From positions 2,976,001 to 3,040,000 of the forward strand of contig OY821641.1 of assembly GCA_963555995.3 (NCBI GenBank): a stretch of 64,000 bases of DNA, given 5' to 3'. This DNA is from Vicinamibacteria bacterium. GTDB taxonomy: Bacteria > Acidobacteriota > Vicinamibacteria > Marinacidobacterales > Marinacidobacteraceae. The translations under genes were made by a program, and so were the position numbers. This document shows, piece by piece, positions 36,386-61,886 of this stretch. How positions within the stretch are numbered: the first letter of the stretch is position 1; every line of letters starts with the position of its first letter. Under the pieces are notes generated by a model. It worked only from the letters and a program-made list of their open reading frames with translations, searched no databases and had not been told where the DNA came from.

Positions 36386-38818
36386 ATGGTCTGCAGGAAT
36401 TGCGGTCGGCGAGTGGGAGGTGGCGCAGGGCCCTGCGTGTGGTGCGGAGCCGAGAGCGGCGCCGGCGGCCCACCGGACGGCAAACACGACGCCCGCATCG
36501 GCACCACCCTGGAGGGCAAGTACCGGCTCGACGCCCGGATCGGCGCCGGCGGCATGGGCGCCGTCTATCGCGCGACGAGGGTCACGATCGGAGATCGGGT
36601 CGCCGTGAAGATCCTGCACGCGGACCGGCTCCGGGACCCCGAGGCCCCGGAGAGGTTCCGGCGTGAGGCGCGGGCGGCAGCCAGGCTCAAACATGAGAAC
36701 GTCGTGACGATCCACGACTTGGGCGTGACAAACGACGGCACGCCCTACCTGGTGATGGAGCTCGTCGAAGGCGACTCCCTGCGGCATCTGATCGAGCGGG
36801 ATGGCCCGCTCCCGCCGTCGCTCGCGGCGGAGATCCTCGCGCAGGTCTGCTCCGCACTCGACGAGGCGCACGCTCAGGGGATCGTGCACCGGGACATCAA
36901 GCCCGACAACATCCTCGTGACGCGGCGACCGGCGGGGCTGCATGTGGAGGTGCTCGACTTCGGCATCGCACGGGTGGGCTACATGGCGCCGGCGGGGGAC
37001 CTGACGCAAGTGGGCCGGGTCCTCGGCACGCCGCACTACATGTCGCCGGAACAGTGTCTCGGAGAGGAACTCGACGGGAGGTCGGACCTCTACAGCATGG
37101 GTGTCGTTCTCTACGAGATGCTGTCGGGGACCGTGCCGTTCGATGCGACGACGGCGATGGGCATCGTGGTGCAGCACGTGAACGACGCGCCGCCCCCGCT
37201 GCATGAGCGGAAGCCGGACGTTCCGCCGGCGGTCGAGGCGGTCGTGGACGGGGCGCTCCGGAAACGGCGCGAGGACCGGCCGGCGAGCGCCGGTGCGCTG
37301 GCGACGCAACTGACGCGCGCCGTAGCGGACGCAGCCGGGACGCGGCCGCCGGCATCCGCCGGCGCGGGTACTCGACGGCCGACCGGCGGTCCGGCGCCCA
37401 CGGTGCAGATGGGGGCGGCGGGAACCGGGGGCCCCGGGGGAACCGGCGCGGCCGGCGGTGGCCGCCGGCGGCGGAGGGTCGGATTCTGGACGGGAGTGGC
37501 CGCCGCGGCGGCGGTGGCGACGACGGTGCTCGTGCTCGACGAGGGGTGGTTGCCGTGGCGCAGGGACACGGGACAGCCGAAACCCGCAACGGCCGGCGCC
37601 GATGCGTCTCCGGTCAAGCCGGAGGTTCCGGCGAGCGCGCCGGAAGCAAGCGTTGCGGCGGACGCGGCCGCACCCCGGATGGAGGAAGGAACTGCATCGC
37701 GGACGCCGGAGCCGGAACGACCGCCGGGCCGGGCGCCGGCCAGCGCCGTTCCTCCCGCCGCCCCGGCCCCGGCGCCCGCCGCCGCGAATCCGCCGGCCCG
37801 CAGGCCGGCGTCGGCGTCGGCGCGCGTGGGCAGCCTGACGATTCGGGCGCTGCCGGGGAGCGCCGTGCAACTGGACGGCGTGGACACCGGAACGACGGAC
37901 GACTCGGGCATCCTCGGCGTGACCGGGATTCCGGCCGGCCGGCACCTGCTGATGGCGCGGAAGGAGGGCTACGCCGACGCGCAGGCCATCGTGAGCGTGG
38001 TCGCGGACCAGTCGGACGTGGTGGAACTGTCGCTGGTCGCGTTGCCGGGGGCGCTCACGGTCACCGCCAACACGCCGGACGTGACGGTGCAGATCGAGGG
38101 CGTCGGTGAATACCGCCTGCCGGTGACGGGACTGGAGGTCCCCGCCGGACTGCAGCGGGTGGCGGCGAGCAAGCCGGGGTTCCTGCCCGTGGAGGACGCC
38201 GTCGAAGTCCGGAGCGGGAAGGCGGCGACGCTGGAACTCGTGCTGGAACGCGTTCCCCCGGAGGTGGCCCTGCAGGAGGCCCAGGGTCTCTTCAACGTGC
38301 GGCAGTATCGGGACGCGGCCCGCGCCGCCGAGGCGGTCGTGACCGAATACGGCGATTCCGGCGAGGCGTATCTCCTGCTCGGAAAGTCAATGCACGAACT
38401 GGGAAGATTCGACGACAGCGCGAACTTCCTGGGACGGGCCATCGAGCTCGGTCAGGCGGTCGAACTGCCCGCAAAGCACCGCCATGGCGGGTTGGGGCTT
38501 CGAGACGGTTTCTGCGAAGGCGTGATCGCCGTGAGCCGGAGCGTGGTCACCTTCCGGTCAGCGGCGGGACTCGACCACAGCTTCGTCACCACCCCGGACC
38601 GGATCCGCGCGGTAAGCCTCCGGGATGACCGGATCGCCATGAGGATCGCGGTCCTCGAAGCCAACCGGGAGCGGGAGCGCAACTTCGACTTCATCCATCC
38701 GGACACGGTGCAACGGGCGGCGGACGACCGGGGGTTGCTGACCGAGCTCTCCTGCCGGCGCTGCGATGCGTCGTTGACGGTGCTCCTCGCGCTGCTGCAA
38801 GAGGCCCGCGGGTTCTGA
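36386..38818 (+). CDS. Hanks-type Ser/Thr kinase: Zn ribbon, kinase, TM, Pro linker, two PEGA, TPR-like, C-terminal CxxC domain
   Basis: GAGGMGAVY, VAVK, HRDIKPDN, DFG, GTPHYMSPE; PEGA-like GRH...RKEGY. Confidence 0.93.
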   Translation: MVCRNCGRRVGGGAGPCVWCGAESGAGGPPDGKHDARIGTTLEGKYRLDARIGAGGMGAVYRATRVTIGDRVAVKILHADRLRDPEAPERFRREARAAARLKHENVVTIHDLGVTNDGTPYLVMELVEGDSLRHLIERDGPLPPSLAAEILAQVCSALDEAHAQGIVHRDIKPDNILVTRRPAGLHVEVLDFGIARVGYMAPAGDLTQVGRVLGTPHYMSPEQCLGEELDGRSDLYSMGVVLYEMLSGTVPFDATTAMGIVVQHVNDAPPPLHERKPDVPPAVEAVVDGALRKRREDRPASAGALATQLTRAVADAAGTRPPASAGAGTRRPTGGPAPTVQMGAAGTGGPGGTGAAGGGRRRRRVGFWTGVAAAAAVATTVLVLDEGWLPWRRDTGQPKPATAGADASPVKPEVPASAPEASVAADAAAPRMEEGTASRTPEPERPPGRAPASAVPPAAPAPAPAAANPPARRPASASARVGSLTIRALPGSAVQLDGVDTGTTDDSGILGVTGIPAGRHLLMARKEGYADAQAIVSVVADQSDVVELSLVALPGALTVTANTPDVTVQIEGVGEYRLPVTGLEVPAGLQRVAASKPGFLPVEDAVEVRSGKAATLELVLERVPPEVALQEAQGLFNVRQYRDAARAAEAVVTEYGDSGEAYLLLGKSMHELGRFDDSANFLGRAIELGQAVELPAKHRHGGLGLRDGFCEGVIAVSRSVVTFRSAAGLDHSFVTTPDRIRAVSLRDDRIAMRIAVLEANRERERNFDFIHPDTVQRAADDRGLLTELSCRRCDASLTVLLALLQEARGF

Positions 38819-38881
38819 CGAGCACGGACGCCGGCGTCGCGGACGGCGTGGTGGACGACGCTCCGTCCTGAGTGACCCTAG

Positions 38882-39060: not shown

Positions 39061-39083
39061 CTAGCCCTCGGGCTGACTCGCTG

Positions 39084-39659: not shown

Positions 39660-39757
39660 CAGTGACTACGGTAATGTTTGCCAGGCTCTCTTGCAAACAG
39701 TTTTGCTGTCCTCTGCCATACGGCGGATTTGAAAGAGCCATCGCTCCCTCACACTAG

Positions 39758-39936
39758 CAGCCTGTGGTGAAACCCCCGTGAGCGCCGAGAGCGGCGAGGC
39801 GCCTCGCTGACAAGGCGCGTGAGGGAGGAATACCGGGTGTATTCCGACCGAAACGCAACGCAGAGCGCCTCGCAGAGGCGTGGTTCAGCGAGGATGCGTC
39901 GCCGCTCGAACGCCGCGAGGGTTTTGCCACAGGCTG
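39758..39936. mobile_element. 179-bp MITE copy 2 (CTAG flanks)
   Basis: Same TIRs, same length and same internal GGAATAC/GTATTCC hairpin as copy 1. Confidence 0.85.
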
Positions 39937-40074
39937 CTAGGATCTGCCCCCCGCTCCGAAGAACTGCCACCCGTCACTCGGGTTCACCACTGCGGCCGCT
40001 GAGGCATGCATCGCGCGTGCTTTCGCTGTCTCCGTCCCGTGGGAGGACCAACCCGCGGTCTCCGAGGGATTTAA

Positions 40075-40253
40075 CAGCCTGTGGTGAAACCCCCGTGAGC
40101 GCCGAGAGCGGTGAAGCGCCCCGCTGACAAGGCGCGTGAGGGAGGAATACCGAGTGTATTCCGACCGAAACGCAACGCCGAGCGCCGCACAGCGGCGCGG
40201 TTCAGCGGGGATGCATCAATGCTTGAACGCCACGGGGGTTTTGCCACAGGCTG
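40075..40253. mobile_element. 179-bp MITE copy 3 (TTAA flanks)
   Basis: Same TIRs and length; TTAA on both sides. Confidence 0.85.
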
Positions 40254-43199: not shown

Positions 43200-43559
43200 C
43201 GCGTGCCCGCTCGTCGCAGATTCTTGATAGGACGGCCTGTAGTGGACTCATCTGAAATCTGTTGCCGTCGGATTCGGCCTAGTACAGGAGAGGAAACCGA
43301 AACAGAAAGTGAAGTTTCTGGGCACCTTTCCGGTCCCAGAGGTCGCATGAGCCAGAGCGGCAACCCGTACGGTTCGTAGCATGTTACCCCCTCGCTCGGA
43401 GCACAACATCACATTGCAGGCGTCGCTGAATCCGTCGGACGGTCCAGTTCTTCCAGCTCGACCAGAGCCACCGGCATGAGTTAGCCGGAAGTTTCGGGCC
43501 TGTTTTGGTAAGGCCCGTATTTTGATAGACATGCTGGATTCTTCGCTGTCGGTTAGTGG

Positions 43560-44540
43560 CTACAAGCTGTCCAACCAGCCGACTGTGGTCCCCGTCTCCT
43601 CGGGTGGCAGGTCGCTGCCGCAATTTGCGCATCCGCCCCTCCTGTTCCAATGCCTCCCCGTCGCCGTCGCGCCGCAACTCTGGCACTTCACTATGTGCCT
43701 GCCAGAACTCCCCGAGGTGAAGCTGTCCAACCAGCCGACTGTGGTCCCCGTCTCCTCGGGTGGCAGGTCGCTGCCGCAATTTGCGCATCCGCCCCTCCTG
43801 TTCCAATGCCTCCCCGTCGCCGTCGCGCCGCAACTCTGACACTTCACTATGTGCCTGCCGGAACTCCCCGAGGTGAAGCTGTCCAACCAGCCGACTGTGG
43901 TCCCCGTCGCCTCGGGTAGCAGGTCGCTGCCGCAATTTGCGCATCCGCCCCTCCTGTTCCAATGCCTCGACGTCGCCGTCGCGCCGCAACTCTGGCACTT
44001 CATTATGTGCCTGCCGGCACCGCGCCAGAGGTAGATCAAACGAGGGAGCACTACGAAACCCACCACGAAGAACAGGAAGAATTCTCCGCTACTAGAGCTG
44101 AAAACACCGCCATACTCAGCGATGGCCATGATCAACCAGGAGTTGACCCAGAACAACACCCAAGCGACCCACAGATGACTCACGATGATGTGCCGGTTGG
44201 CACGCTCCGACGAAAGATACCGAACATAGTACCAACGAGAAAAGACTGTAAATCCCCCCGCGACGAGCAGGGCATCCACCCAAATTGCCAAGCTGAAAAG
44301 ACCGCGCTCGATGACGCTCAACAGGCAAAAGCTGATGACGAACCCGACCCACAGGACCCACAGCTTGCTCTTGAAGCCGAGCTTCGAGAACTTGGACCAA
44401 GCCTCGGACCCGTCGGCCTTGATCTCCGCCGAGGTCTCCCCTGCGTGTTTGGCGATCTTGGACCTCACCTCGGCCCAGCGCTGCGACGACGCCGTCGGAT
44501 TTCGCCTCTTGGCTTTACGAGGAACTTCCGATTCATTCAT
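43560..44540 (-). CDS. Four-TM membrane protein with three tandem C-terminal Zn-ribbon repeats
   Basis: Hydrophobic core followed by 3x CQSC-x14-CANC. Paralog at 56369-56905. Confidence 0.75.
   Translation of the reverse strand: MNESEVPRKAKRRNPTASSQRWAEVRSKIAKHAGETSAEIKADGSEAWSKFSKLGFKSKLWVLWVGFVISFCLLSVIERGLFSLAIWVDALLVAGGFTVFSRWYYVRYLSSERANRHIIVSHLWVAWVLFWVNSWLIMAIAEYGGVFSSSSGEFFLFFVVGFVVLPRLIYLWRGAGRHIMKCQSCGATATSRHWNRRGGCANCGSDLLPEATGTTVGWLDSFTSGSSGRHIVKCQSCGATATGRHWNRRGGCANCGSDLPPEETGTTVGWLDSFTSGSSGRHIVKCQSCGATATGRHWNRRGGCANCGSDLPPEETGTTVGWLDSL
43564..44017. repeat. 156-bp near-perfect tandem repeat, about 2.9 copies
   Basis: AAGCTGTCCAACCAGCC recurs at 43564, 43720 and 43876. Confidence 0.95.
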
Positions 44541-44763
44541 TGTGTGCTTCCTTCAATCGCAAGCAAGGTAAATGACAGGACGGTACCGCCGCATTTCCGG
44601 CGCCGGCCCGAAGCATTCCGCCCGAGGTCGGCGTCAGCGCGCTCGTGTACCGCCTGTACCGTCCTTCCGAATGTGGGGCGGCCCTCCAGCCGGCGGTGGA
44701 ACCCGCGCGACCGCGGAAACGCCCGCCGGGAGAACCGGGTCGCGTGTGACCTGCCACAGCCAG

Positions 44764-46770
44764 TCAGAACCCGCGGGCCTTTTGCAGCAGCGCGACGAGC
44801 ACCGTCAACGACGCGTCGCAGCGCCGGCAGTAGAGCTCGGTCAACAACCCCGATTCGTCCGCCGACCGCTGCACCGTGTCCGGATGGATGAAATCGAAGT
44901 TGCGCTCCCGCTCCCGATTGCCTTCGAGGACCGCGATCTTCATTGCGATCCGATCATCCCGGAGGCGGACTTCCCTGATCCGGTCCGGGGTAGTGACGAA
45001 GCTGTGGTCGAGTCCCTGCGCAGACCGGTAGGTGACCACGCTTCGGCTCACGGCGATCACGCCCTCACAGAAACCGGCTCGAAGCCCCAAACCGCCATGC
45101 CGGTGCTTCGCGGGCAGCTCGACCGCCTGGCCGAGCTCGATGGCCCGTCCCAGGAAATTTGCGCTGTCGTCGAGTCTTCCCAGCTCGTGCACCGACTTTC
45201 CGAGCAGGAGATACGCCTCGCCGGAATCGCCATATTCGGTCACGACCACGCCGGCGGCGCGGGCCGCGTCCCGATACTGCCGCACGTCGAAGAGACCTTG
45301 CGCCTCCCGCAGGGCCACCTCCACGGGAACGCGTTCCAGCGCGAGTTCCAGCGTCGCCGGTTCTCCGGCACGGACTTCGACGGCGTCCTCGACGGACAGG
45401 AACCCCGGCTTGCTCGCCGCCACCCGTCGCAATCCGGCGGGGACCTCCAGTCCGGTCACCGGCAGGCGGTATTCGCCGACGCCCTCGATCCGCACCGTCA
45501 CGTCCGGGACGTTGGCGGTGACCGTGAGCGCCCCGCGCAACGCGACCAGCGACAGTTCCACCACTTCCGACTGGCCCGCGACCACGCTCACGGTGGCCTG
45601 AGCGTCGGCGTAGCCCTCCTTCCGCGCCACCAGCAGGTGCCGGCCGGCCTGGATCCCCGGCAGGCCGAGGATGCCGGAGTCGTCCGTAGTTCCGGCGTCC
45701 ACGCCGTCCAGTTGCACGGCGCTCCCCGGCAGCGCCCGAATCGTCAAGCTGCCCTCACGGGCCGACGCCGGCGCCGGCTTGCGGGCAGGCGGATTCGATA
45801 CGGCGGGCGCCGTGGCCAGTGGGGCGGGTTCGGGAGCGGTCGGTCCGCGCACCGTCTGGGTCGGCGCGGGAGGGGCAGGATCAGGCGCGGGAGGGGCAGG
45901 ATCAGGCGCGGGAGGGGCAGGATCAGGCGCGGGAGGGGCAGGATCAGGCGCTGGAGCGTCGGGAGCAGGAGCCGCGGCGGAATCGGGAGCCACCGAGACG
46001 CTCAGTGCATAGTCGCCGGTTGCGGTCCCCTCAAAGCCATCTACGGCAAGGAAGTAGGTGCCGGCGGACACTCGCTGCGAAATCCTGAAGTTGCCGCCCG
46101 AACCGCCGTCATTGTCTGTGGCTTCCACTCCGTTCCCGCGAAGTACACCCACGGTGTCCGTACTTCCGGAGGTCTCGAGCGTCACGGTGGACATGTCGGG
46201 AACCTCGACGATGAAACAGTCCCGCTCGTTCGGCCGATCCAGTCGACCGGCTGTGGAGGAACCGGCCTGCACGAGGGTCTCGCTTCCCTGCCCGCACGGG
46301 TGATCGTTGGCCATCTGCGGGCCCAAAGCCTGGTCGCCGGAAAAACAGCTCCGCACGATCCAGACCCCGAGCAACACCGTCGCCGCGAGGGCGCTCCTGC
46401 CGCGCCACCTGCGAGGCCGCGTACCGCCGGCGTCCGGCGCCCACCGCTCGCGCTCTTCACGAGCCCGCCGCTCCTCCTCCGCCCTGGCCGCGCCACGTTC
46501 TTCCTGACGGCACTTCTCGATCAGCGCATCGAACTTGCTGCGGCTCTCCTCCGTGCGGAAGTACTTCCTGAGCTTGCCGGCAAGGGTCTTCCGGTCGTCA
46601 GCCCGAGCCTTCCTGCTCTTCTTGTAAACATCGCCGCACCGGTTCCAGAGGTCGTCCTTCGGGCAACCCCTCGTGGCGCCGAGAAACGAATAGTGATCCT
46701 CCTCGCCGAGAGCACGAAGTTCCCGGTAGATCCGCTCCACCTGGAGTCTCGTGTTCTCACCGCCGGACAT
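44764..46770 (-). CDS. HPD-less J-like domain, TM, PPC, Pro linker, two PEGA, TPR-like protein (left copy)
   Basis: N-terminal DHYSFLG...FRTEESRSKFD; PPC-like DT.GVL...DNDGG..NFRI; C-terminal third near-identical to the kinase C-terminus. Confidence 0.75.
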   Translation of the reverse strand: MSGGENTRLQVERIYRELRALGEEDHYSFLGATRGCPKDDLWNRCGDVYKKSRKARADDRKTLAGKLRKYFRTEESRSKFDALIEKCRQEERGAARAEEERRAREERERWAPDAGGTRPRRWRGRSALAATVLLGVWIVRSCFSGDQALGPQMANDHPCGQGSETLVQAGSSTAGRLDRPNERDCFIVEVPDMSTVTLETSGSTDTVGVLRGNGVEATDNDGGSGGNFRISQRVSAGTYFLAVDGFEGTATGDYALSVSVAPDSAAAPAPDAPAPDPAPPAPDPAPPAPDPAPPAPDPAPPAPTQTVRGPTAPEPAPLATAPAVSNPPARKPAPASAREGSLTIRALPGSAVQLDGVDAGTTDDSGILGLPGIQAGRHLLVARKEGYADAQATVSVVAGQSEVVELSLVALRGALTVTANVPDVTVRIEGVGEYRLPVTGLEVPAGLRRVAASKPGFLSVEDAVEVRAGEPATLELALERVPVEVALREAQGLFDVRQYRDAARAAGVVVTEYGDSGEAYLLLGKSVHELGRLDDSANFLGRAIELGQAVELPAKHRHGGLGLRAGFCEGVIAVSRSVVTYRSAQGLDHSFVTTPDRIREVRLRDDRIAMKIAVLEGNRERERNFDFIHPDTVQRSADESGLLTELYCRRCDASLTVLVALLQKARGF
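45863..45946. repeat. 21-bp VNTR, four copies (encodes APDPAPP)
   Basis: GGCGCGGGAGGGGCAGGATCA repeated four times exactly. Confidence 0.95.
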
Positions 46771-46805
46771 GGCTTCCTCAGATTTGCGGGAACTTCCTTC
46801 CCCCG

Positions 46806-46932
46806 TCAGCCGCGGCTGGTTCACGGCATGGCTCGGTCAGATCGTCCAACTCGTTTCGGCCTTCTTCGGTGACGAGGCGCTGCCGGCTCGTCCCCGCAAA
46901 GTTCATCCGGGCGTCGTCCTTCTGCTTCATCC
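46806..46932 (-). pseudogene. 3' remnant of the vWA/J-like gene
   Basis: MKQKDDARMNFAG..RQRLVTE matches the end of the ORF ending at 54174 in inverted orientation, with a 1-bp indel. Confidence 0.8.
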
Positions 46933-46987
46933 TCTCCAGTTCGCTTCCAGATCGCTGTCGTGTCACCAGGGGTTCGCGCCGACCGGC

Positions 46988-48622
46988 TCAGGACGTCACC
47001 TTGATCGTGACGTTCCTCCTCCTCTTCCGCTCCATGTCCTCGGCTGTCAGGAGCGCGTCGCTCCTCAGGACCGCGGTGGCGGTCTGATGGGTCGTGAGGT
47101 CCTCGCCGTACACCGTCAGCAGCCCGTCCTCACTCAGGGTGAACCGGACCACGATCTGGGAGCCCCTTGGCAACGGTCTGGTGAAGGCGACGTGAGTGGT
47201 TCCGATCACCCAGGACGGATCGAAATCGAACGGCTCGTCGCGCGTCCGCTCGAGGTTCTCGATGCAGGCCACACTCACGCCCGTTTGCCCGTCCTTCACC
47301 GTGCGATTCCTCATCTCGCGCTCCGCCGGAACCGGTTCATCCATCAGGATGAGGTTCAGGCACCGCTTCCTCCCAACATCCTCATAGTAGAGATCGGTGC
47401 CGTAACTCTTGGAGGTGACGTTGCGGATCGTCTTCCGACTGAGGTCCCGGACCGTCGGCAGCGAAAGGCCAAGGTCCGCGGCCACGGTCCTTTCGGCCTG
47501 CTCACGGGGAAAACCTCGCTCAATCAAGGCCTCGATCGAGTCGCCCATCTCGCACTTCAGCCCCATCAGCGCCGCCCCCTTGGCGACGACTTCATCGGGA
47601 TCGAAGGAGAGCGCCCGGAACTCGGGGAACCGCCGCTCCAGCGCCTCCCGCACCTGCGGCATGTGCGTCGAGCCGCCGACCAGGAGCATCTTGTCAATCT
47701 GCTGATGACCCTTTTCGCGAGCGATCTTCAGCAATTCCTCGGTGAGCATGAGGGTGTTCTCCAGCAGGCCGTAGGTCAGGTCCCGGAACGCCTCGCGGGT
47801 GACTTCGACCGTTTCGCGGGTCCCCTCGTGGTAGAGAACGGTACGGACCTTCTCCCTGCTGCTCAGGCCGATCTTCACCCCTTCGGCCGCCTCCATCAGG
47901 TACTCCCAGGTCTCCTTGTCATCCTTCACTGCCTGCTTCGACACCCTCGCGACCGTGGCCAACCGTTCCGCGAAGGACTCGGCGAGGGCCTCGTCCCAGT
48001 TCCTGCCGCCCAGTTTGTGATCTCCACCGGTGCACACGACCGCGATGGAGCCCGCCTTGATGTCGAGCACGGTGATGTCGAAGGTGCCGCCGCCGAGGTC
48101 ATAGACCAGGATCGTCTCGTCGCCGCCCGTCTCCAGCAGTCCATACGCCACCGCCGCCGCCGTCGGTTCGGGAACGACGTAGCGGACGATGAGCCCCGCC
48201 AACTCTCCCGCCTGCTTCGTTGCCTCCTTCTGCGCCACGCCGAAGTACGCCGGACAGGTGATGACCGCCTCGGTGATTGCCTCGCCGGTGATGGTTTCGG
48301 CGTCCCGCACCAACCGCTGGAGGATGTGCGCGGAAACGTCGGTGGGCGTGACCTCCCGCCCCTGCATGATCCTCTTCCACTCGGGATCCCCCATGTGGCG
48401 CTTCACCGCGGAGACGACGAGTTCGGGGCTGAGCGGAGCCTCGGCCCTGGCCGACTTGCCGACGGCCACGTTGTCCTCCGACTCGAAATAGACGACCGAG
48501 GGCGTGGTCCGGTCGTTTTCGGAATTCGGGATCACGACCGGCCGGCCGTTCTCCTCCACCCGCGCGATGCACGAGAAAGTCGTCCCGAGGTCAATCCCGA
48601 AGACCCGTCGCGCCCCACTCAT
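46988..48622 (-). CDS. Atypical Hsp70 family protein B (no alpha-helical lid)
   Basis: [34 protein letters not shown]; 544 aa. Confidence 0.93.
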   Translation of the reverse strand: MSGARRVFGIDLGTTFSCIARVEENGRPVVIPNSENDRTTPSVVYFESEDNVAVGKSARAEAPLSPELVVSAVKRHMGDPEWKRIMQGREVTPTDVSAHILQRLVRDAETITGEAITEAVITCPAYFGVAQKEATKQAGELAGLIVRYVVPEPTAAAVAYGLLETGGDETILVYDLGGGTFDITVLDIKAGSIAVVCTGGDHKLGGRNWDEALAESFAERLATVARVSKQAVKDDKETWEYLMEAAEGVKIGLSSREKVRTVLYHEGTRETVEVTREAFRDLTYGLLENTLMLTEELLKIAREKGHQQIDKMLLVGGSTHMPQVREALERRFPEFRALSFDPDEVVAKGAALMGLKCEMGDSIEALIERGFPREQAERTVAADLGLSLPTVRDLSRKTIRNVTSKSYGTDLYYEDVGRKRCLNLILMDEPVPAEREMRNRTVKDGQTGVSVACIENLERTRDEPFDFDPSWVIGTTHVAFTRPLPRGSQIVVRFTLSEDGLLTVYGEDLTTHQTATAVLRSDALLTAEDMERKRRRNVTIKVTS

Positions 48623-48715
48623 TCGTTGCTACCGGGCGCCTCGGCGCCGGATCTTGTCCCATCGGCGTCCGACAACCACCGGGCGAAAACTCGCTCCCAG
48701 TCAGCGCCGAACTGC

Positions 48716-50344
48716 TCAGTTCGACACCGTGATGCCAGCATGGCGTCGCGTCTCCTCCCGCAACTCCTCTTCCGTCTTGATCGCGTCGCTCTTGAGCTTC
48801 GTCTCCGCTTCCTGCTGGGTGGTCAGATCCTTGCCGTACATGGTCAGCAGTCCGTCCTCGCTCAGGTGGAAGCGGACGATCAACGGGGAATTGCTCGGCA
48901 GCTCCCTTGCGAAGGTGATGTGGGCTTCTCCGACCACGTCGTTTTCGGGATCGAAGTCCACGGTACCACGCTCGCGCTCAACGTTCTCGACGCACCGAAG
49001 GCGGACTCCGTTTCCTGCGTGGGCGGTGGAATACTTCTTCTCCGTCTCCATCGGAACCTGATCGTCCACCAGGATGAGGTTGTCGCACATGGTTTTTCCG
49101 CCCCCCACGTTGACAACCACGCCGAAGCTCTTGGAGGTGACGTTCTTGATCTCGGTTTCCGTCACGCGCCGGGTGACCGCCAGCGAGACGCCGCTCTCGC
49201 GAGACACCTGCTCTACGGCCTGATCGTGGCGGAAACCACGCTTGATCAAGTCGTCAATGGACTCGCCCAGCGCGAACTTCAGACCCATGAGCGCCGCTCC
49301 CTTGGCGACGACCTCGTCGGGATCGAAGGACTGGATTTCGAAATCGGGAAACCGCCGCTGCAGAGCCGCCTTCACCTGCGGCATGTGCGTGGAGCCGCCG
49401 ACCAGGAGCACCTTGTCAATCCGCGAATGGCCCTTTTCCCGAGCGACTTCCAGCAACTCCTCGGTGAGCATCAGGGTGTTTTCCAGCAAACCCTCGGTCA
49501 ACTCGACGAACGTGTCACGGGTGAGTTCCACCTTCGCGCGGGTCGTGTCGTGGTACAGGATCGTTCGGACCTTCTCCTTGCTGCTCAGGCCGACTTTCGC
49601 GATCTCCGCTTCCAGCAGCACCTTCTCCCGGGTCTCCGGGTTCTCCTTCACCTCGTCCTTCGACACGCCCGCGGCATTGGCCAACTGCTTGAAGAACCAC
49701 TCCGCGAGAGCCTCGTCCCAGTTCTTGCCGCCGAGGTAATGGTCCCCGCCGGTGCAGACGACCGAGATGTCCTTCTCCTTGACGTCGAGCACCGTGATGT
49801 CGAAGGTGCCTCCGCCAAGGTCGTAAACGAGGATGGTCTGGTCATCGGAAGCTTCCAGCATGCCGAACGCCACCGCGGCCGCGGTGGGCTCCGGAATGAC
49901 GTAGCGCACGTTGAGGCCCGCAATCGTTCCCGCCTGCTTCGTCGCCTCCTTCTGGGCCACGCCGAAGTAGGCCGGGCAGGTGACCACCACATCCTCGACT
50001 TTGTCGGTCGTGATGGTGCGCGCGTCCTGAACCAGGCGTTTGAGGATGTGGGACGAGACGACGGTCGGGTCCACCTCCTCGCCGTGCATGACCCTTTTCC
50101 ACTCGGGATCGCCCATGTGGCGCTTCACCGTGGCGACTACGAGATCCGGACTCAGCGGGGCCTCCGCCTTGGCCGACTTGCCGACGGCCACGTTGTCCGC
50201 GGACTCGAAATAGACGACGGACGGGGTGGTGCGATCGTTTTCGGAGTTCGGGACCACCACCGGCTTGCCGTGTTCGTCCACGTGGGCGACGCACGAATAC
50301 GTGGTTCCGAGGTCAATCCCGTAAACCCTCTTGGGCGCACTCAT
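48716..50344 (-). CDS. Atypical Hsp70 family protein A (no alpha-helical lid)
   Basis: Same motifs as protein B. AAGGAG RBS before MSAPKRV at 50344. Confidence 0.93.
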   Translation of the reverse strand: MSAPKRVYGIDLGTTYSCVAHVDEHGKPVVVPNSENDRTTPSVVYFESADNVAVGKSAKAEAPLSPDLVVATVKRHMGDPEWKRVMHGEEVDPTVVSSHILKRLVQDARTITTDKVEDVVVTCPAYFGVAQKEATKQAGTIAGLNVRYVIPEPTAAAVAFGMLEASDDQTILVYDLGGGTFDITVLDVKEKDISVVCTGGDHYLGGKNWDEALAEWFFKQLANAAGVSKDEVKENPETREKVLLEAEIAKVGLSSKEKVRTILYHDTTRAKVELTRDTFVELTEGLLENTLMLTEELLEVAREKGHSRIDKVLLVGGSTHMPQVKAALQRRFPDFEIQSFDPDEVVAKGAALMGLKFALGESIDDLIKRGFRHDQAVEQVSRESGVSLAVTRRVTETEIKNVTSKSFGVVVNVGGGKTMCDNLILVDDQVPMETEKKYSTAHAGNGVRLRCVENVERERGTVDFDPENDVVGEAHITFARELPSNSPLIVRFHLSEDGLLTMYGKDLTTQQEAETKLKSDAIKTEEELREETRRHAGITVSN

Positions 50345-50444
50345 GTTCGTTTCTCCTTTGGGTCCCCATCGGTTGAGGGGTTCGGATGCTGGGTTCTCGT
50401 CGCGATCCGCGTCCCACACTCTTGCGTCGTTTCCGGAAGGTTCC

Positions 50445-51308
50445 TCACTTCGGCCTCTCGAATCGGTACACGGCGACCTTGGCCGTCTCCATGACTTGCC
50501 CGTTCCACACGAAGCCGAGCTGGAGGCACTCGTGGACGGTCCGGTCCTGATCCTTCTCGTGCGTCGGCCTCACGCTCACGATCGTCTGCATGCGGGCATC
50601 GAACGGTTCGCCGGGCTCCGGACGATGGGGATCGAGACCGAAGTTCTCTAGCAGAACCTCCATGTCCTCCTGGAAGTTCGCCAGGAGATCGAGCGCCCGC
50701 TCGGGGGTGAGTTCCTCAGGCTTCCTGCTCCAGGCGGCGGCCTGCTTCCCCATGTCGCGCTGAAGACTCAGCACGGCGCGGACCAACGGTCGAACGGCCT
50801 TCCCGAGGAGGTCGCGCTTGAACTCCTCGTTTTCCTTGTGGAGGGTGTCAATCGTCTGCTGTTTGGTCGCGTCGTAACGCAGCTTGGCCTCGAACTCGTT
50901 GAGGATCCTGCCGAGCAGCGCTTCCATCGAGACGAGACGCTCATTGAGTCGCTCTTGGGCAGCGTCGCCATTCGTCGCCTCGCTCCCGTCGGACGTGGCC
51001 GACCCGGCGGCCGGGACGGAGCGCTGCGCGCGAGCGCCGCCCGTATCGGGGGCGGTTGGCGGACATGTGCTCTCGGCAGGCTTTTCGGGTTGGTCAGGGC
51101 CGGCTCCGGTTGCCGGGCCGCCGCCATCCCCGGCGGCGTCGCCGGCCCCCGCTGGAACAGGCGTCTCGCCCGGGGCATCGAGCTCGGCGGCGGAGTTCTC
51201 AGGCGCAGAATGAGGCAACGTTTCGATTGCCGGCGGTTGTTCTGCTCCGGCGGAGGCCGGACCCATGGCCGGGGTATCGTTCCGTCGCCGGTTCAACCAA
51301 CCCATCAC
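50445..51308 (-). CDS. grpE: GrpE-like nucleotide exchange factor with disordered N-terminus
   Basis: Coiled coil, then PGEPFD...V.E..Q.GF..NGQV...AKVAV; adjacent to the Hsp70 genes. Confidence 0.85.
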   Translation of the reverse strand: MMGWLNRRRNDTPAMGPASAGAEQPPAIETLPHSAPENSAAELDAPGETPVPAGAGDAAGDGGGPATGAGPDQPEKPAESTCPPTAPDTGGARAQRSVPAAGSATSDGSEATNGDAAQERLNERLVSMEALLGRILNEFEAKLRYDATKQQTIDTLHKENEEFKRDLLGKAVRPLVRAVLSLQRDMGKQAAAWSRKPEELTPERALDLLANFQEDMEVLLENFGLDPHRPEPGEPFDARMQTIVSVRPTHEKDQDRTVHECLQLGFVWNGQVMETAKVAVYRFERPK

Positions 51309-51376
51309 CAGGGGATCCTCACGCCGGCCGAGGGGCTCGGCCGGTGGACGCCAACAGCGAACTCAACTCGACCGGT

Positions 51377-51523
51377 GTCGAGTCGGTACTTGCCCTCCAG
51401 GGTAGTGCCGACACGGTGGTCGTATTCGTCATCCGGCGGACCCTCGGCGCCTCGCTCGGCTCCCCACCAGACGCAAGGCCCCGTGCCGCCATTCATCCGC
51501 CTACCGCAGTCTCTACAGATCAT
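51377..51523 (-). pseudogene. 5' remnant of a Ser/Thr kinase paralog
   Basis: MICRDCGRR..GPCVWWGAE..GTTLEGKYRLD matches the first 49 aa of 36386-38818. The frame continues to a TGA overlapping the grpE ATG. Confidence 0.8.
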
Positions 51524-51610
51524 TGCCAACTGTTGGGCTGGCAACATTATCATTATTTTTCTCTCGATTGCCACCGGCGGTCCCGCGCACTCCGGCGGGC
51601 TCGCCAGCGG

Positions 51611-51647
51611 CTAACTGGCTGTGGCCAAACCCAGGTGAGCGCCGAGA
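51611..51647. mobile_element. Degenerate left end of the 179-bp MITE family
   Basis: CTAA-CTGGCTGTGGCCAAACCCAGGTGAGCGCCGAGA resembles CTAG-CAGCCTGTGGTGAAACCCCCGTGAGCGCCGAGA. Confidence 0.5.
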
Positions 51648-51838
51648 CCCCCACCGGGAGAAATGCCCATGATCGGGACTTTCCGCACAACCCGCCGGGC
51701 ATGAAAATGGCTGGAGCGCCGATCTTCAGATCTGAAGACCGGCGCTTCAGGCTGGGACTGCCATCAGGACGGCCAGCGGCTTGCCAAGACACGCTGCGGT
51801 TCTAACTGTCCACCTTCGCCATGATCCTGTTCCGGGGG

Positions 51839-52227
51839 CTGCAGGAGGCGCTGCGCAACACCCGGCTGGCCGTGGCCGGCGCAGAACCGATCCGGCTCCG
51901 CCTGCTGAAGATCGGAGTTCTGGTCCGGATATCGGTGCGGCGCGTCCGCCTCGCCATGTCCTCCGCCTGCCCCGACCAGGACTGTTCCGCCTCGCCTGCG
52001 AACGCCTGAACCGCACCTCAGGCCCGCCACACGGCCGCCCCCCCGAGAGGCGGCGCCCTGTGCCCAAAGGTGCTCGTCACCCCGGATGAGCGAGCCCAGC
52101 CCCCCCAGCGGATACCGCATCCGACCCGACGCCTACCTCCGCACTCGTGCCAAACGGTGCCGCCCGCTCCCCACGCCTCCCGAAACCTCCAATTCCGCCG
52201 TCCCGCCAGCAGTATGAGAAGTCCGGG
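51839..52227 (+). mobile_element. IS1380-family remnant (transposase C-terminus and right end)
   Basis: LRNTRLAVA...IRLRLLKIG..VRISVRRV...MSSACP resembles IS1380 transposase C-termini. ATGAGAAGTCCGGG is a plausible terminal repeat. Confidence 0.65.
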
Positions 52228-52289
52228 TTAGAGAGCCCTCCCACGAGCGGCCGGACAGTTCGGGGCGCGGTTCTTCGGCGACCGCTGGG

Positions 52290-52490
52290 TGTCAATGGGC
52301 TCCGAAAATGTCCCACTTTTGGGTTTCTGGCGGGCCGGGAGTTGAGTAACGGGGCTGATGGGGGGAGTTTTGACCGGTCGGCAGCCGCGGACGGAGTGAA
52401 CGTAGGGGGCCGAGCGAACGGAGCTCCGCGGCTGCCGACCGAGTCTCACCTTGATTGTCGCTGGCGTCTCACCCTGATTGACGCGCCACA
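52290..52490. mobile_element. Non-autonomous TG...CA element built from IS-like ends
   Basis: Starts TGTCAATGGGCTCCGAAAATGTCCCACTTTTGG (IS21-like). Ends with tandem GTCTCACC(T/C)TGATTG repeats before CCACA. No TSD seen. Confidence 0.35.
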
Positions 52491-52699
52491 GGTTCCAAGC
52501 TGTCCGCCACTTTTGGTGACCAGCGGGGTGCGCAGGAGGACCGATCATGGGGGTTTCTCCCGGTGGGGGTTCCAAGCCGACGGGGAGTTCAGCCGGAAGA
52601 CCCGGAACCTCGCGGCGTTCAAGGTGGAGCGGGCCTGGGCGTCGGTGCCGGCGCCAGCCCGCTGCCGGGACGTCACGCAGCAGTGGCTCCCCGACGCTA

Positions 52700-52785
52700 T
52701 CCCGACCGGACCTGACTGAGCAGCGACAACAGCGAATCCCCCGTCAGCGAGTCCACCTCGTCCAGCAGCAGCACCAGCGGACGCG
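52700..52785 (-). pseudogene. Fragment of an AAA/P-loop ATPase (Walker B region)
   Basis: [28 protein letters not shown]. Confidence 0.5.
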
Positions 52786-52952
52786 GACGGCTGCGGCGGT
52801 GGCCTATGGACTGCTGGAGACGGGCGGCGACGAGACGATCCTGGTCTATGACCTCGGCGGCGGCACGTTCGACATCACCGTGCTCGACATCAAGGCGGGC
52901 TCCATCGCGGTCGTGTGCACCGGTGGGGATCACAATCTGGGCGGCAGGAACT
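52786..52952 (+). pseudogene. Internal fragment of Hsp70 B
   Basis: [29 protein letters not shown]...GGRN, near-identical to about 47999-48165 in inverted orientation. Confidence 0.9.
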
Positions 52953-54174
52953 CACCTCCTCGGACCGCGTGGCCATTGTGGACTTCGACCACGTGGCGAG
53001 GGTTCACTTGCCGCTCACCTCGCTTGCCGACGAACGGGCGCGGTCCCGGGTCGAATCCGCAATTGACGAGGTGGACAGTGACGGCGGCACCGATCTCGGG
53101 GCAGGGCTCGCCGCCAGCTTCGCCGAGTTGCAGCGGGCGTCCGCCAGCGAGGGGCGCGATCGGCATGTGATCTTCCTCACCGACGGTGTAGGGCAATACT
53201 CACCAGAGGTGCTCGAAGCCGGAATCGCTGCGAAAGCAACCGTTCATACGGTGGGTCTCGGCGATGGAGTGGATGCGGCTCTGCTCACGGCGATCGCCAC
53301 CGCTACCGGAGCGTCGTACTACGCGGTGAGCGATGCCTCCGATCTGGTGGACGTCTTCGAGAGCGTCTTCGACCAGCAGTTGGCCATGAACGCGGTCGCG
53401 GCGGGCGGCGAGCGGGGAGAACTCCTGACGTCGGGCTGGCTGCTGCTGGTGGTGCGCACCCTGAGTTGGGGGGTCATGGGTCTGCTCATCGGCATGGGGC
53501 AGGGGTTGGCGTACAACACCCGGGAGGACTTCCGGGCCTGCGCCTTTGGAGGGCTCGCCGGCGGGCTGGCCGGTGGCGCGCTGTTCAACCCGGTCAGCCA
53601 ACTTGCCGTTCTGGGCTCGGGCCTCTCGGCACGAGCGGTCGCGGACGTGATCGTGGGCGCGACCATCGGTGGCTCGATGAGGATTGCGCAGACCACGCTG
53701 GCCGAGTCCGACAACCCGAAGACCACGATGCTCACGATTCTGCCGGAGCCCCCTCGGGATGCCGGATTGAGGGCTGACGGATCCGGAAACACGAGGCTCG
53801 AAGACCGGGGCGCGAGCCATCTGGGGCTACGGGATTTCCTCCGTCACGGATTCGGGAAGAGCCGAGGGAGTTCGGCCGCGCCCGGAGCAGCCGTGTCCGG
53901 CGCCGGGACCACCGGACGAAAGGTGGAGGAAATCTTCCGGGGGCTGACGGCCCTGGGCGAGCGGGATCACTATTCCTTCCTCGGCGCGGATCGGAGTTGG
54001 ACGCTGGCGCAGCTCCAGAAGACGTGCCGCGAGATCCATTTGGCGCGGATGAAGCAGAAGGACGACGCCCGGATGAAACTTGCCGGGAAGATCAGGCAGC
54101 GTCTTGTCACCGAAAAAGACCGCAAGGAATTGGACGAACTGATCGAGAAGTACCATGAAACCAGTCGCGACTGA
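52946..54174 (+). pseudogene. N-terminally truncated vWA - multi-TM - HPD-less J-like protein
   Basis: [19 protein letters not shown] and VHTVGLG vWA motifs without the DxSxS strand; Gly-rich TM helices; C-terminal DHYSFLG domain. Confidence 0.75.
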
Positions 54175-54209
54175 CGGGGGAAGGGAGTTCCCGCAAATCT
54201 GAGGAAGCC

Positions 54210-56158
54210 ATGTCCGGCGGCGAGAACACGAGACTCCAGGTAGAGCGGATCTACCGGGAACTTCGTGCGCTGGGCGAGGAGGATCACTATTCGTTTCTCG
54301 GCGCCGCGAGGGGTTGCCCGAAGGACGACCTCTGGAACCGGTGCGGGGAGGTTTACAAAGAGAGCAGGAAGGCTCGGGCTGACGACCGGAAGACCCTTGC
54401 CGGCAAGCTCCGGAAGTACTTCCGCACCGAGGAGAGCCGCAGCAAGTTCGATGCGCTGATCGAGAAGTGCCGTCAGGAAGAACACGCCGCGGCGGCACGT
54501 GGAGCAGCGGACGCCCGACGGGCCAGGGCGGAGGAGGAGCGGCGGGCTTGGGATGCCGGCGGTACGCGGCTTGGCAGGTGGCGCCGCCGGAGCGCCCTCG
54601 CGACGACGGTGTTGCTCGGGGTCTGGGTCGTGCGGAGCTGCCTTTCCGGCGACCAGGCTTCGGGCCCGCAGATGGCCAACGATCACCCGTGCGGTCAGGC
54701 GGGCGGGACCCTCGTGCAGGCCGGCTCCTCCACACCCGGTCGCCTGGACCAGCCCAACGAGCAGGACTGTTTCGTCGTCGAGGTTCCCGGCGGGTCCACC
54801 TTGACGCTCGAGACCTCCGGAACTACGGACACCATGGGTGTACTTCGCGGAAACGGAGTGGAAGCCAGAGACGATGACGGCGGTTCGGACGCCAACTTCA
54901 GGATTTCGGAGCGCGTGTCCGCTGGCACGGATTTCCTTGCCGTGGTCGGCTACGACGGAACAGCAACGGGCGACTACGCGCTGAGCGTCCAGGTGGCTCC
55001 CGATTCCGCCGCGGCTCCTGCTCCCGTCGCTCCCGCGCCTGATTCTGCCCGTCCCGCGCCGACCCCGACGGTGCGCCGACCGACCGCTCCCGAACCCGCC
55101 CCAGCGTCCCCGGCGCCCACCGTCTCGAATCCGCCCGCCAGCAGGCCGGCGCCGGCGTCGGCCCGTGAGGGCAGCTTGACGATTCGGGCGCTGCCGGGGA
55201 GCGCCGTGCAACTGGACGGCGTGGACGCCGGAACGACGGACGACTCGGGCATCCTCGGCCTGCCGGGGCTCCAGGCCGGCCGGCACCTGCTGGTGGTCCG
55301 GAAGGAGGGCTACGCCGACGCCCAGGCCACCGTAAGCGTGGTCGCGGGCCAGTCGGAGGTGGTGGAACTGTCGCCGGTCGCGTTGTCGGGGGCGCTCACG
55401 GTCACCGCCAATGTCCCGGACGTGACGGTGCAGATCGAGGGCGTCGGCGAGTACAGCCTGCCGGTGACGGGACTGGAGGTCCTGGCCGGACTGCGGCGGG
55501 TGGCGGCGAGCAGACCGGGATTCCTCCCCGTCGAGGACGCCGTCGAAGTCCGTGGCGGAGAAGCGGCGACACTGGAACTCGTGCTGGAACGCGTCCCCGT
55601 GGAGGTGGCCCTGCGGGAGGCCCAGAGTCTCTTCAACGTGCGGCAGTATCGGGACGCGGCCCGCGCCGCCGAGGCGGTCGTGACCGAAAACGGCGATGCC
55701 GGAGAGGCGTATCTCCTGCTCGGGAAATCGGTGTACGAGTTGGGAAGACTCGAGGACAGCGCGAACTTTCTGGGACGGGCCATCGAGCTCGGCCAGGCAG
55801 TCGAGCTGCCCGCGAAGCACCGGCATGGCGGTTTGGGGCTTCGAGCCGGTTTCTGTGAGGGCGTGATCGCCGTGAGCCGGAGCGTGGTCACCTACCGGTC
55901 AGCACAGGGACTGGACCACAGCTTCGTCACCACCCCGGACCGGATCCGTGCGGTCACCTTCCGGGATGACCGGATCGCCATGAGGATCGCGGTCCTCGAA
56001 GGCAATCGGGAGCGGGAGCGCAACTTCGACTTCATCCATCCGGACGCCGTGCAGCGGTCGGCGGACGAACGGGGTTGAGGACCGAGCTCTACTGCCGGCG
56101 CTGCGATGCGTCGTTGACGGTGCTCCTCGCGCTGCTGCAAAGCGCCCGCGGGTTCTGA
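54210..56158 (+). CDS. HPD-less J-like, TM, PPC, two PEGA, TPR-like protein (right copy, frameshift near 56070)
   Basis: Paralog of 44764-46770. A missing base causes a stop at 56078; the last ~26 aa (ELYCRRC...RGF*) continue in another frame to 56158. Confidence 0.75.
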
Positions 56159-56368
56159 CGGGCTGTGACAACATCCACGCAACACGGTTCTCCCAGTGGC
56201 GGCTTCGGCGCTCGCGCGGGTTTCACCACCGGCTGTACAACCATCCCTCATGCGGACGGACAGTTCGGGTCGCGGGCCGTGTTGACCGCTGGGCCGCGTC
56301 GGGCGGCAGGTCGCTCGTGGCTGATGCAGCTCGGCTTCCGTGATTTGTTCTGACCAGGAAGGAGTGCC

Positions 56369-56905
56369 TTGACCGAGGAGAATCGGAACCTGACAGCGGC
56401 GGCGCAGCGCTGGGCCGAGCTGAGGTCCCGGATCGCCACCTACAGAAGAGAGCCCTTGGCGGTCGTCAAGGCCGATGCGGCCGCGGCCGTTTCCGAGGCT
56501 TGGTCCAGGTTCCTGAAGCTTGGCTTCATGAGCAAGCTGTGGGTCGTGTGGGTGGCATTCGTCGTCAGCTACTGCCTGTTGTTGGTGGTCGGGCGCGGTG
56601 TTTTCGACCTTGGCAATTGGGTGGAGTCCCTGTTCCTCGTGGGCGGGTTGGCCATCTTCCCTCGTTGGTACTCTGTCCGGCACCTTTCCTCGAGAGGTGC
56701 CGGCCTGCACATCCTGAGTAGGCTGTGGGTCGTGTGGGTGGTGTTCGTCGTCAACAACGGCCTGTTCTTCGTGATCTTGGGAGATGGTGTTTTCGCCTTG
56801 ACAAGTTGGGTGTTTTTCCTGGGCTTCGTGGGGGCTCTGGTGGTCCTCCCTCGTTTGTTCTACTTTTGGCTCTTTCCGTGGAAGCTCTTGACTCGAAAAT
56901 CGTGA
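56369..56905 (+). CDS. Four-TM membrane protein, paralog of 43560-44540 without Zn ribbons
   Basis: Shares QRWAE.RS.IA, EAWS.F.KLGF.SKLWV and VLPRL. An out-of-frame IVKRRSCGA relic follows. Confidence 0.7.
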   Translation: MTEENRNLTAAAQRWAELRSRIATYRREPLAVVKADAAAAVSEAWSRFLKLGFMSKLWVVWVAFVVSYCLLLVVGRGVFDLGNWVESLFLVGGLAIFPRWYSVRHLSSRGAGLHILSRLWVVWVVFVVNNGLFFVILGDGVFALTSWVFFLGFVGALVVLPRLFYFWLFPWKLLTRKS

Positions 56906-60602: not shown

Positions 60603-60647
60603 GCAGGACGGTTGCGGGAAAAGGGGGTTTTTCCGCAACTGTCCTGC
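60603..60647. repeat. 20-bp-arm inverted repeat (terminator-like or collapsed IS ends)
   Basis: GCAGGACGGTTGCGGGAAAA-GGGGG-TTTTTCCGCAACTGTCCTGC. Confidence 0.6.
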
Positions 60648-60737
60648 GGAGAACCCGGACTTCGGGGCGGGGTTCCGCCGCGACCGCGGAGGCGCGCTAA
60701 GGTCCCGCCCCGCTCAGCAATCCAGGAGGGACGTGGC

Positions 60738-61841: not shown

Positions 61842-61886
61842 GGACGCGCCCACGGCGCGCTGGCGGACGCCTTCTGCTGCCCGGCG

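What the first reader, a model, noticed from the sequence alone, without database searches (positions are those of the whole stretch)
43560..56905. Candidate new system: GrpE, two atypical Hsp70s and membrane proteins with HPD-less J-like domains, linked to vWA and a Ser/Thr kinase
Seen: combining both arms gives the order kinase(remnant) - grpE - hsp70A - hsp70B - vWA/TM/J-like - J-like/TM/PPC/PEGA/TPR - 4TM/Zn-ribbon. Two different proteins carry a related ~70-aa domain (DHYSFLGATRGCPKDDL...LRKYFRTEESRSKFD and DHYSFLGADRSWTLAQL...IRQRLVTEKDRKELD). Established: J-domains start DYYxxLG, end LSDxxKRxxYD, and need HPD to stimulate DnaK. Both domains here follow the start and end pattern but have no HPD. 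Inference: a private, membrane-tethered Hsp70 machine with two Hsp70s, two J-like partners and its own exchange factor. It could couple an extracytoplasmic PPC/PEGA sensor to cytoplasmic Hsp70 activity (signalling, conflict or dedicated assembly) rather than general folding. I know of no characterised operon like this.
Basis: partly seen in the sequence, partly recalled or inferred. Interest (0 to 1): 0.9.

Follow-up and report, generated by a model that had tools for sequence, protein, structure and literature searches.

The report
Membrane pseudo-J receptors with private Hsp70s
This accessory gene cluster encodes two lidless Hsp70 chaperones, a GrpE-like factor and predicted membrane proteins whose J-type domain lacks the HPD trigger, while the Hsp70s lack the residues that HPD normally touches; it is likely a GTPase-less, receptor-like offshoot of a conflict system so far only predicted by computer, and here it lies in a partly broken duplication.

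Summary
Observation confirmed, with corrections. The minus arm holds an intact grpE, two lidless Hsp70s and a J-like/TM/PPC/PEGA/TPR gene. The plus arm is a broken inverted duplicate, and the vWA gene is broken in both arms (intact in relative P0002). The domains are J homologues: a family profile hits J-domains in the top 43 of 55 PDB rows. They lack HPD and about 6 loop residues. All 68 aligned Hsp70s keep the catalytic residues; none keeps R167 or Q378, DnaK's HPD contacts. The J-like domain occurs in 35 of 80 Hsp70-anchored loci, and Hsp70/GrpE/J genes flank 9 of 21 vWA-anchored loci. The parent is the Hsp70-GrpE-DnaJ theme of GAP1-N2 GTPase systems (Kaur 2020, computational). This genome gave no GAP1 or DO-GTPase match. 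J proteins in GTPase loci are soluble (0 of 9 with TM); in GTPase-less loci 23 of 28 have a TM and varied outer domains. Best reading (0.5, inferred): receptors recruit the private Hsp70s through an HPD-independent interface. Binding is untested. The kinase link is a shared ectodomain only. The scan found this module before on other DNA (8 notes). New variant of a known kind; interest 0.55.

The parts
36386..38818 (+). Intact Ser/Thr kinase-TM-PEGA-PEGA-TPR-tail (outside the finding); shares its outer module with the J-like genes
   Evidence: Pfam; 91% nt to 44763-45828; dN/dS 0.35
43560..44540 (-). 4TM protein with three tandem 52-aa zinc-ribbon repeats; not shown to be a conserved part
   Evidence: no relative in 80 loci
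44764..46770 (-). Intact J-like / charged helix / predicted TM / PPC / PEGA x2 / TPR / tail protein, 668 aa (ATG 46770 has a GAGG upstream; frame is open from 46824)
   Evidence: same layout in P0096, related layouts in P0099 and P0120
46495..46758 (-). HPD-less J-like domain (five helices; helix II-III loop cut to a short turn)
   Evidence: AF2 pLDDT 91
46336..46392 (-). Predicted single TM helix; weak hydropathy (1.62), 5 K/R before, 0 after
   Evidence: homologous stretch in P0099 scores 1.79
46814..46942 (-). Remnant (about 40 codons) of the J-like tail of the vWA gene, left by a deletion
   Evidence: 66-nt contigs with 0 differences over the junction in 3 runs of one study
46988..48622 (-). 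Hsp70-2, 544 aa, lidless, helical insert before the linker
48716..50344 (-). Hsp70-1, 542 aa (ATG 50344; frame open from 50419), 64% identical to Hsp70-2
   Evidence: dN/dS 0.40 between the pair
50445..51308 (-). GrpE-like protein with a low-complexity N-terminus
   Evidence: PF01025 E 2e-12
51305..51574 (-). Kinase 5' remnant (homology 51374-51523)
   Evidence: 77% nt to 36386-36535
51647..52570 (.). IS1380-family debris between inverted repeats
   Evidence: NF033539 E 4e-4, below cut-off; inverted repeat I19
52786..52952 (+). Internal fragment of Hsp70-2
   Evidence: 97% nt to 47998-48164
52915..54174 (+). 5'-truncated TM-vWA-TM-J-like gene; lacks the first 164 residues of P0002, with the N-terminal TM helices and the DSSDS motif
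53905..54165 (+). HPD-less J-like domain at the C-terminus of the vWA protein
54210..56078 (+). Second J-like/TM/PPC/PEGA/TPR copy, frameshifted near 56075, losing the last ~27 residues
   Evidence: J-domain dN/dS to the left copy 0.14
56369..56905 (+). Short copy of the 4TM gene without intact zinc ribbons
   Evidence: dN/dS 0.78 to the left copy

Best explanation
The locus encodes two lidless Hsp70s, a GrpE-like factor and predicted membrane proteins whose HPD-less J-type domain likely recruits these Hsp70s to the membrane through a remodelled interface, so that it would act as a receptor-coupled chaperone switch. Shown: the genes, J homology, loss of HPD, loss of DnaK's HPD contacts R167 and Q378 with the catalytic residues kept, conserved linkage across phyla, and descent from the Hsp70-GrpE-DnaJ theme of GAP1-N2 systems without GAP1 or GTPase. 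Predicted: J-like domain inside, PPC/PEGA/vWA outside. Inferred: an envelope or foreign ligand binds the variable outer domain and clusters the J-like domains; these dock the ATP-state Hsp70; hydrolysis drives binding or remodelling of a dedicated client; the GrpE-like protein resets the cycle. The client and the stimulus are unknown; a conflict or stress response is the likeliest output by descent. In this genome only the minus arm (grpE, two Hsp70s, one receptor) is intact.
For: J homology. Two-sided loss of the contact: 0 of 68 Hsp70s have R at 167 or Q at 378, 68 of 68 keep D8, K70, P143, E171, D194, T199, D201; D35 bonds R167 and Q378 in DnaJ-DnaK (PMC8215388 passages), and DnaK R167A is suppressed by DnaJ D35N (PMC13012618 passages). 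Linkage: J-like domain in 35 of 80, GrpE in 51-57 of 80 Hsp70-anchored loci; 9 of 21 vWA-anchored loci, 5 of the 7 longer than 10 kb. Receptor layout: 23 of 28 J proteins in GTPase-less loci have a TM, 0 of 9 in GTPase/GAP1 loci; outer domains vary (Lcl_C, PEGA/pentapeptide, PG_binding, TonB_C, DUF4013, Sel1); the same PEGA-TPR-tail module sits behind a kinase domain at 36386-38818. Purifying selection: dN/dS 0.14 for the J-like domain copies (9 synonymous, 5 non-synonymous changes), 0.29 for the Hsp70 NBDs.
Against: HPD is essential in every system tested, and pseudo-J proteins may not work with Hsp70 at all (PMC13254874 passages). The window's domains lack the N-terminal HP[T/S] J-like domain that 35 of 80 loci carry and have lost ~6 loop residues. 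The TM is weak (1.62; missed at threshold 1.7). Structural matches to J-domains are middling: Foldseek best E 0.37, VIA Z 6.3, with CRISPR Csm subunits at Z 5.8-5.9. 43 of 80 Hsp70 loci show neither J-like domain within the fetched flank. The locus is full of broken copies and IS debris. The TM/GTPase split leans on related Desulfobacterales and on cut flanks. No PADLOC match for the module's proteins.
Confidence: 0.5

Rival explanations
1. The J-like domain is a J-to-J adaptor (as Pam16 to Pam18) that joins the receptors to one another; the Hsp70s are engaged by another partner or work without J stimulation.
For: The family's long form carries two J-like domains in tandem, and the window has only the second. 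Several loci hold two or more proteins with the domain (window, L023, L028). Pam16 precedent. The HPD loop is cut away here.
Against: L024, L028 and the window keep Hsp70 beside genes with only the second domain, so no other J partner is at hand; the Hsp70 contact site has changed in step.
Confidence: 0.2
2. A private folding or assembly chaperone for its own large surface and membrane proteins, like HscC with DjlB/DjlC, with no signalling role.
For: Membrane-anchored J partners with a dedicated Hsp70 exist in E. coli; large PPC/PEGA proteins lie in the locus; SBD-beta and the ATP-state domain docking are kept.
Against: Outer domains swap freely between relatives and are shared with a receptor kinase; the lid, which matters for holding folding intermediates, is gone; descent is from a predicted conflict system.
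Confidence: 0.15
3. In this genome the locus is a decaying relic of a horizontally gained island and no longer works.
For: vWA gene broken in both arms, IS debris, kinase and Hsp70 fragments, frameshifts; found in 1 of 55 genomes of the order; lower GC than the genome (61-66% over 40001-52000 vs 70%).
Against: Four genes of the minus arm are intact and under purifying selection where testable; both Hsp70 paralogues have orthologues in related assemblies (P0107/P0108, P0114/P0109).
Confidence: 0.15

Closest known systems
HSP70/GrpE theme of GAP1-N2-type DO-GTPase systems (Kaur, Burroughs, Iyer, Aravind, eLife 2020, PMC7159879; sections 27 and 29 read, plus passages)
   Same: Same Hsp70 subfamily, GrpE and J-like domain family: loci such as L062, L075, L089, L131 carry GrpE, Hsp70, J-like/DZR/FNIII, DO-GTPase2 and GAP1-N2; the window's Hsp70s nest in a 19-row clade (SH-aLRT 99, quick tree) with Hsp70s of such loci. 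The paper also notes multi-TM proteins with extracellular vWA in its tubulin theme.
   Different: No GAP1-N2 or DO-GTPase2 match in this genome (93% complete) and no FNIII. The J-like domain is single, HPD-less, and fused to TM plus outer domains. Both Hsp70s are the 540-aa type, not the 690-aa Hsp70-vWA type. The sections read do not mention loss of HPD or a GTPase-less membrane form. The parent is itself untested.
E. coli HscC with DjlB/DjlC (PMC8215388, PMC13254874; passages)
   Same: Specialised Hsp70 with its own membrane-linked J partners, apart from DnaK.
   Different: DjlB/C keep HPE; HscC has no GrpE and a shortened rather than absent lid. Here a GrpE-like gene is linked and the HPD loop is gone.
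Canonical DnaK-DnaJ-GrpE
   Same: Three component types; catalytic residues and ATP-state domain arrangement (TM 0.82 to 4b9q).
   Different: No HPD, R167Y, N170P, Q378M, linker DVLLLD changed, ~35-residue helical insert, no lid. The genome keeps its own canonical set.
Pseudo-J (type IV) proteins such as Pam16/Tim16 and DnaJB13 (PMC13254874; passages)
   Same: J-fold with HPD replaced; role called enigmatic in that review.
   Different: Bacterial, encoded beside a dedicated Hsp70 whose contact residues have also changed; no linked canonical J protein.

Membership tests
GAP1-N2 DO-GTPase system, Hsp70 theme | GAP1 with GAP1-N2 domain | tested here: not met
   PF20013: 0 matches in G000, 93% complete
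GAP1-N2 DO-GTPase system, Hsp70 theme | DO-GTPase gene | tested here: not met
   PF19993: 0 matches in G000
GAP1-N2 DO-GTPase system, Hsp70 theme | FNIII-repeat protein fused to a DnaJ domain or TPR | tested here: not met
   J-like domain present, but fused to TM/PPC/PEGA/TPR or vWA/TM; no fn3 hit
GAP1-N2 DO-GTPase system, Hsp70 theme | Linked HSP70 and GrpE of the same subfamily | tested here: met
J-domain protein (functional) | J-domain homology and helical fold | tested here: met
   family profile vs PDB; hhalign to three DnaJ domains prob 92%; structure searches rank J-domains first but only at middling scores; window sequences alone do not hit PF00226
J-domain protein (functional) | HPD motif in the helix II-III loop | tested here: not met
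   0 of 50 rows of the domain alignment have HPD; loop shortened in the window
J-domain protein (functional) | Stimulates the ATPase of a partner Hsp70 | not testable with these tools
   needs a bench assay
DnaK (equivalog) | NCBIfam cut-off, DVLLLD linker, helical lid | tested here: not met
   328 and 314 bits vs 648; linker changed, lid absent
Hsp70 superfamily ATPase | NBD with D8, K70, E171, D194, T199 and an SBD-beta sandwich | tested here: met
HscC-DjlB/C | HPE J partners, no dedicated GrpE | tested here: not met
   no HPE; linked GrpE-like gene. No HscC sequence was placed in the tree.

The most novel reading that the evidence does not exclude
A class of bacterial transmembrane receptors whose cytoplasmic output is an HPD-less J domain in place of a kinase: ligand binding at swappable outer domains (PPC, PEGA, vWA, PG-binding, TonB_C, Lcl_C) fires a co-evolved, lidless Hsp70 pair that no longer uses the universal HPD-R167 contact, making Hsp70 a signal transducer in a defence or symbiosis response.
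Probability: 0.3. Interest if true: 0.82.

Novelty: new variant of a known kind. Interest (0 to 1): 0.55.

Why it matters
HPD is held essential for every J-Hsp70 pair tested, and the role of pseudo-J proteins is an open question (PMC13254874). Here nature supplies a matched set: a J homologue without HPD beside an Hsp70 without R167 and Q378 and with its own GrpE-like factor. Four soluble pieces allow a direct test of HPD-independent activation. A positive result would also give the first experimental handle on the Hsp70 arm of the GAP1-N2 systems and show Hsp70 used as a receptor output.

Tried and rejected
Cluster names for the close relatives could not be looked up. Scans of genome contigs with P0002 and of metagenome contigs with the 4-row J alignment found no relative, so no intact locus of the closest lineage was read; co-location of P0002/P0096/P0114 and of P0093/P0099/P0108/P0109 rests only on equal contig lengths. 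Idea that the cassette jumped into a kinase copy and gained PEGA/TPR by accident: weakened, since P0096 and the distant P0120 have the same J-like-TM-PEGA-tail layout and a G004 protein carries the tail without kinase or J; not excluded for the 5' remnant. Conserved role of kinase, 4TM/Zn-ribbon and the 981-aa PPC gene: not supported (Atlas best 0.77). Atlas hits for the J-like domain were under 0.9, leads only. PADLOC: no match for module proteins. Whether the frameshift near 56075 is real stays open: an extra base shows in contigs of two runs, but they may come from the paralogous copies. The gene start that follows Hsp70-2 in other strains was not found in G000. The two other phylum hits at E about 1e-9 look like ordinary DnaJ-size frames and were not read. 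The tree is the quick one; the careful search did not finish. PMC6369304 is not held. Supplements of PMC7159879 (Figure 1-source data) were not read and may list GTPase-less loci.
Full report
Naming: Hsp70-1 is the upstream gene (50344-48716, minus), Hsp70-2 the downstream one (48622-46988). Residue numbers of DnaK come from an E. coli DnaK fetched.

1. What is in the sequence. The region is an inverted duplication: 54041-56264 matches 46938-44658 at 86.5%, and 56384-56870 matches 44504-44024 at 73%. The minus arm reads kinase 5' remnant, grpE, Hsp70-1, Hsp70-2, a 40-codon remnant of the vWA gene's J-like tail, an intact J-like/TM/PPC/PEGA/TPR gene, and a 4TM/Zn-ribbon gene. The plus arm reads IS1380 debris (below cut-off), a 167-nt piece of Hsp70-2 (97%), a vWA gene lacking its first 164 residues against P0002, a frameshifted second J/PPC gene and a short 4TM gene. 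Contigs of public runs cover the IS-to-Hsp70-fragment junction with 0 differences and the left deletion junction with 66-nt pieces in 3 runs of one study (30 letters on one side, just under the tool's bridging rule; these runs may be the source sample). In all 4 runs laid, other contigs leave the window at 46939-46941: there Hsp70-2 is followed by a different gene start, and the J tail is preceded by intact vWA-gene sequence. So the merged order is broadly right but probably misses at least one gene.

2. The J-like domain. The window sequences do not hit Pfam DnaJ (0 of 4 rows). A 4-row profile over 1.84 billion representatives gave 9 proteins; the distant ones carry the domain as the second of two J-like domains ahead of FNIII or zinc-ribbon parts, or at the N-terminus ahead of a TM. 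A 38-row alignment hits J-domain chains in the first 43 of 55 PDB rows, aligns to three DnaJ domains with 92% probability and finds the genome's own DnaJ at E 4e-4; 3 of 38 members hit PF00226 weakly. AlphaFold2 gives five helices at pLDDT 91. Structure searches put J-domains first but weakly (Foldseek E 0.37; VIA Z 6.3, unrelated bundles at 5.8-5.9). No row of 50 has HPD, and the window's copies lack about 6 more loop residues. The first J-like domain of the long form often has HPT or HPS (17 of 41 rows; 1 has HPD) and is absent from the window.

3. The Hsp70s. They score far below DnaK cut-offs. They keep the NBD, SBD-beta and helix A, carry a helical insert before the linker and have no lid; the model matches ATP-state DnaK (TM 0.82). 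In 68 aligned members (11 close proteins and 57 from loci, chosen by likeness to the query and so not independent) D8, K70, P143, E171, D194, T199 and D201 are invariant, R167 is kept in 0 and Q378 in 0; L391 is I or V in 67 and P419 is kept in 67. The window has Y167, P170, M378. DnaJ D35 bonds R167 and Q378 (PMC8215388, passages), and R167A is suppressed by D35N (PMC13012618, passages). The loss on both sides fits a remodelled private interface, but also fits no interface at all. The genome has a canonical dnaK with R167/Q378 and a grpE-dnaJ pair elsewhere.

4. Neighbourhoods. A scan with the Hsp70 alignment kept the best 80 of 599 confirmed stretches from part of the collection, across Acidobacteriota, Planctomycetota, Thermodesulfobacteriota, Chloroflexota, Bacillota, Bacteroidota, Pseudomonadota and actinomycetes. 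GrpE lies in 57 of 80 by phmmer (51 after removing overlapping frames), the window-type J-like domain in 35 (profile iterated on these loci), either J-like domain in 37, a GAP1-N2 cluster in 10 and a DO-GTPase2 cluster in 19 (family names from one representative each). An independent scan with the TM-vWA-TM family gave 21 loci; 9 have Hsp70, GrpE or J-like genes beside it, among them 5 of the 7 longer than 10 kb; the gene is also beside grpE in 3 of the 80. In the 11 more distant family members read, and in the family consensus, the vWA protein ends otherwise, often in an HTH-like tail; the J-like tail was seen only here and in P0002. J proteins in loci with GTPase or GAP1 have no TM (0 of 9, one cut at the locus edge); 23 of 28 in the other loci have one, with outer parts such as Lcl_C, PEGA/pentapeptide, DUF4013, PG_binding and TonB_C. 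L024, L028, P0099 and P0120 share the window's reduced form, with only the second J-like domain. Kin inflate these counts. The module is sporadic: 1 of 55 genomes of the order and no clear case in 400 sampled from the phylum (one search includes unpublished G036 as a negative row).

5. The kinase. The intact kinase shares the PEGA-PEGA-TPR-tail module at 91% nt and dN/dS 0.35. The module also occurs on a protein of G004 with neither kinase nor J. Kinases appear in 8 of 80 loci only. The link is therefore a swapped outer module: the J-like domain stands where the kinase domain stands. This is the main hint for a receptor role.

6. How it likely works. See Best explanation: recruitment of the private Hsp70s to the membrane by HPD-less J-like domains of receptors with variable outer domains (0.5); J-to-J adaptor (0.2); private folding chaperone (0.15); relic (0.15).

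7. Known systems. The parent is the HSP70/GrpE theme of the GAP1-N2 systems (PMC7159879, sections 27 and 29 read; passages). The window fails membership: no GAP1-N2, DO-GTPase2 or FNIII. Eight full-text searches (open-licence library only, listings seen) showed no paper on a GTPase-less, membrane-bound, HPD-less form or any experiment on this theme; PMC13580251 and PMC13254874 were seen as passages. The paper's source-data files were not read. The scan's own notes describe the same kind of module in other genomes (8 shown); two gave leads that I tested.

8. Verdict. Real, accessory, partly decayed here; a new variant of a computationally known kind, with a clear test of HPD-independent Hsp70 control. 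Interest 0.55.

Noticed in passing
window 38879-39063, 39755-39939, 40072-40256: A ~185-nt MITE-like repeat with terminal inverted repeats; 77 near-full copies in the genome, some in tandem.
   Followed up: partly
P0093: An Hsp70 with the vWA domain of the TM-vWA family (58% to P0002) inserted inside its substrate-binding domain.
   Followed up: partly
L115:3752-5842, L131:5400-7499: The ~690-aa second Hsp70 of GAP1-N2 loci ends in a vWA domain (2 of 2 tested), whereas Kaur 2020 describes the second Hsp70 as lacking the peptide-binding domain.
   Followed up: partly
L119:1498-3591, L121:10798-13179: TM-vWA-TM genes are followed by CHAT-AAA/NACHT genes, a conflict-type neighbour.
   Followed up: no
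window 60612-64000: RNA ligase (PF09414 + PHA02142), an AAA_21 ATPase with weak AriA/GajA-like PADLOC hits, and a further frame running off the end; possibly a defence island edge.
   Followed up: no
window 33860-36298: FHA-FHA-ABC transporter directly upstream of the intact kinase, a usual kinase-substrate pairing (recalled).
   Followed up: no
window 40254-43199: 981-aa protein with weak PPC repeats, 61% GC, between repeat elements; no relative in the 80 loci.
   Followed up: partly
Hsp70 alignment A5: An invariant Cys and Gly (TCPAYFG, 68 of 68) beside the proline switch, and a conserved C-terminal short strand in place of the lid.
   Followed up: no
L033, L041, L044, L045, L048 and other planctomycete loci: The same Hsp70 pair lies with FHA and vWA genes and no detected J-like gene.
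   Followed up: no
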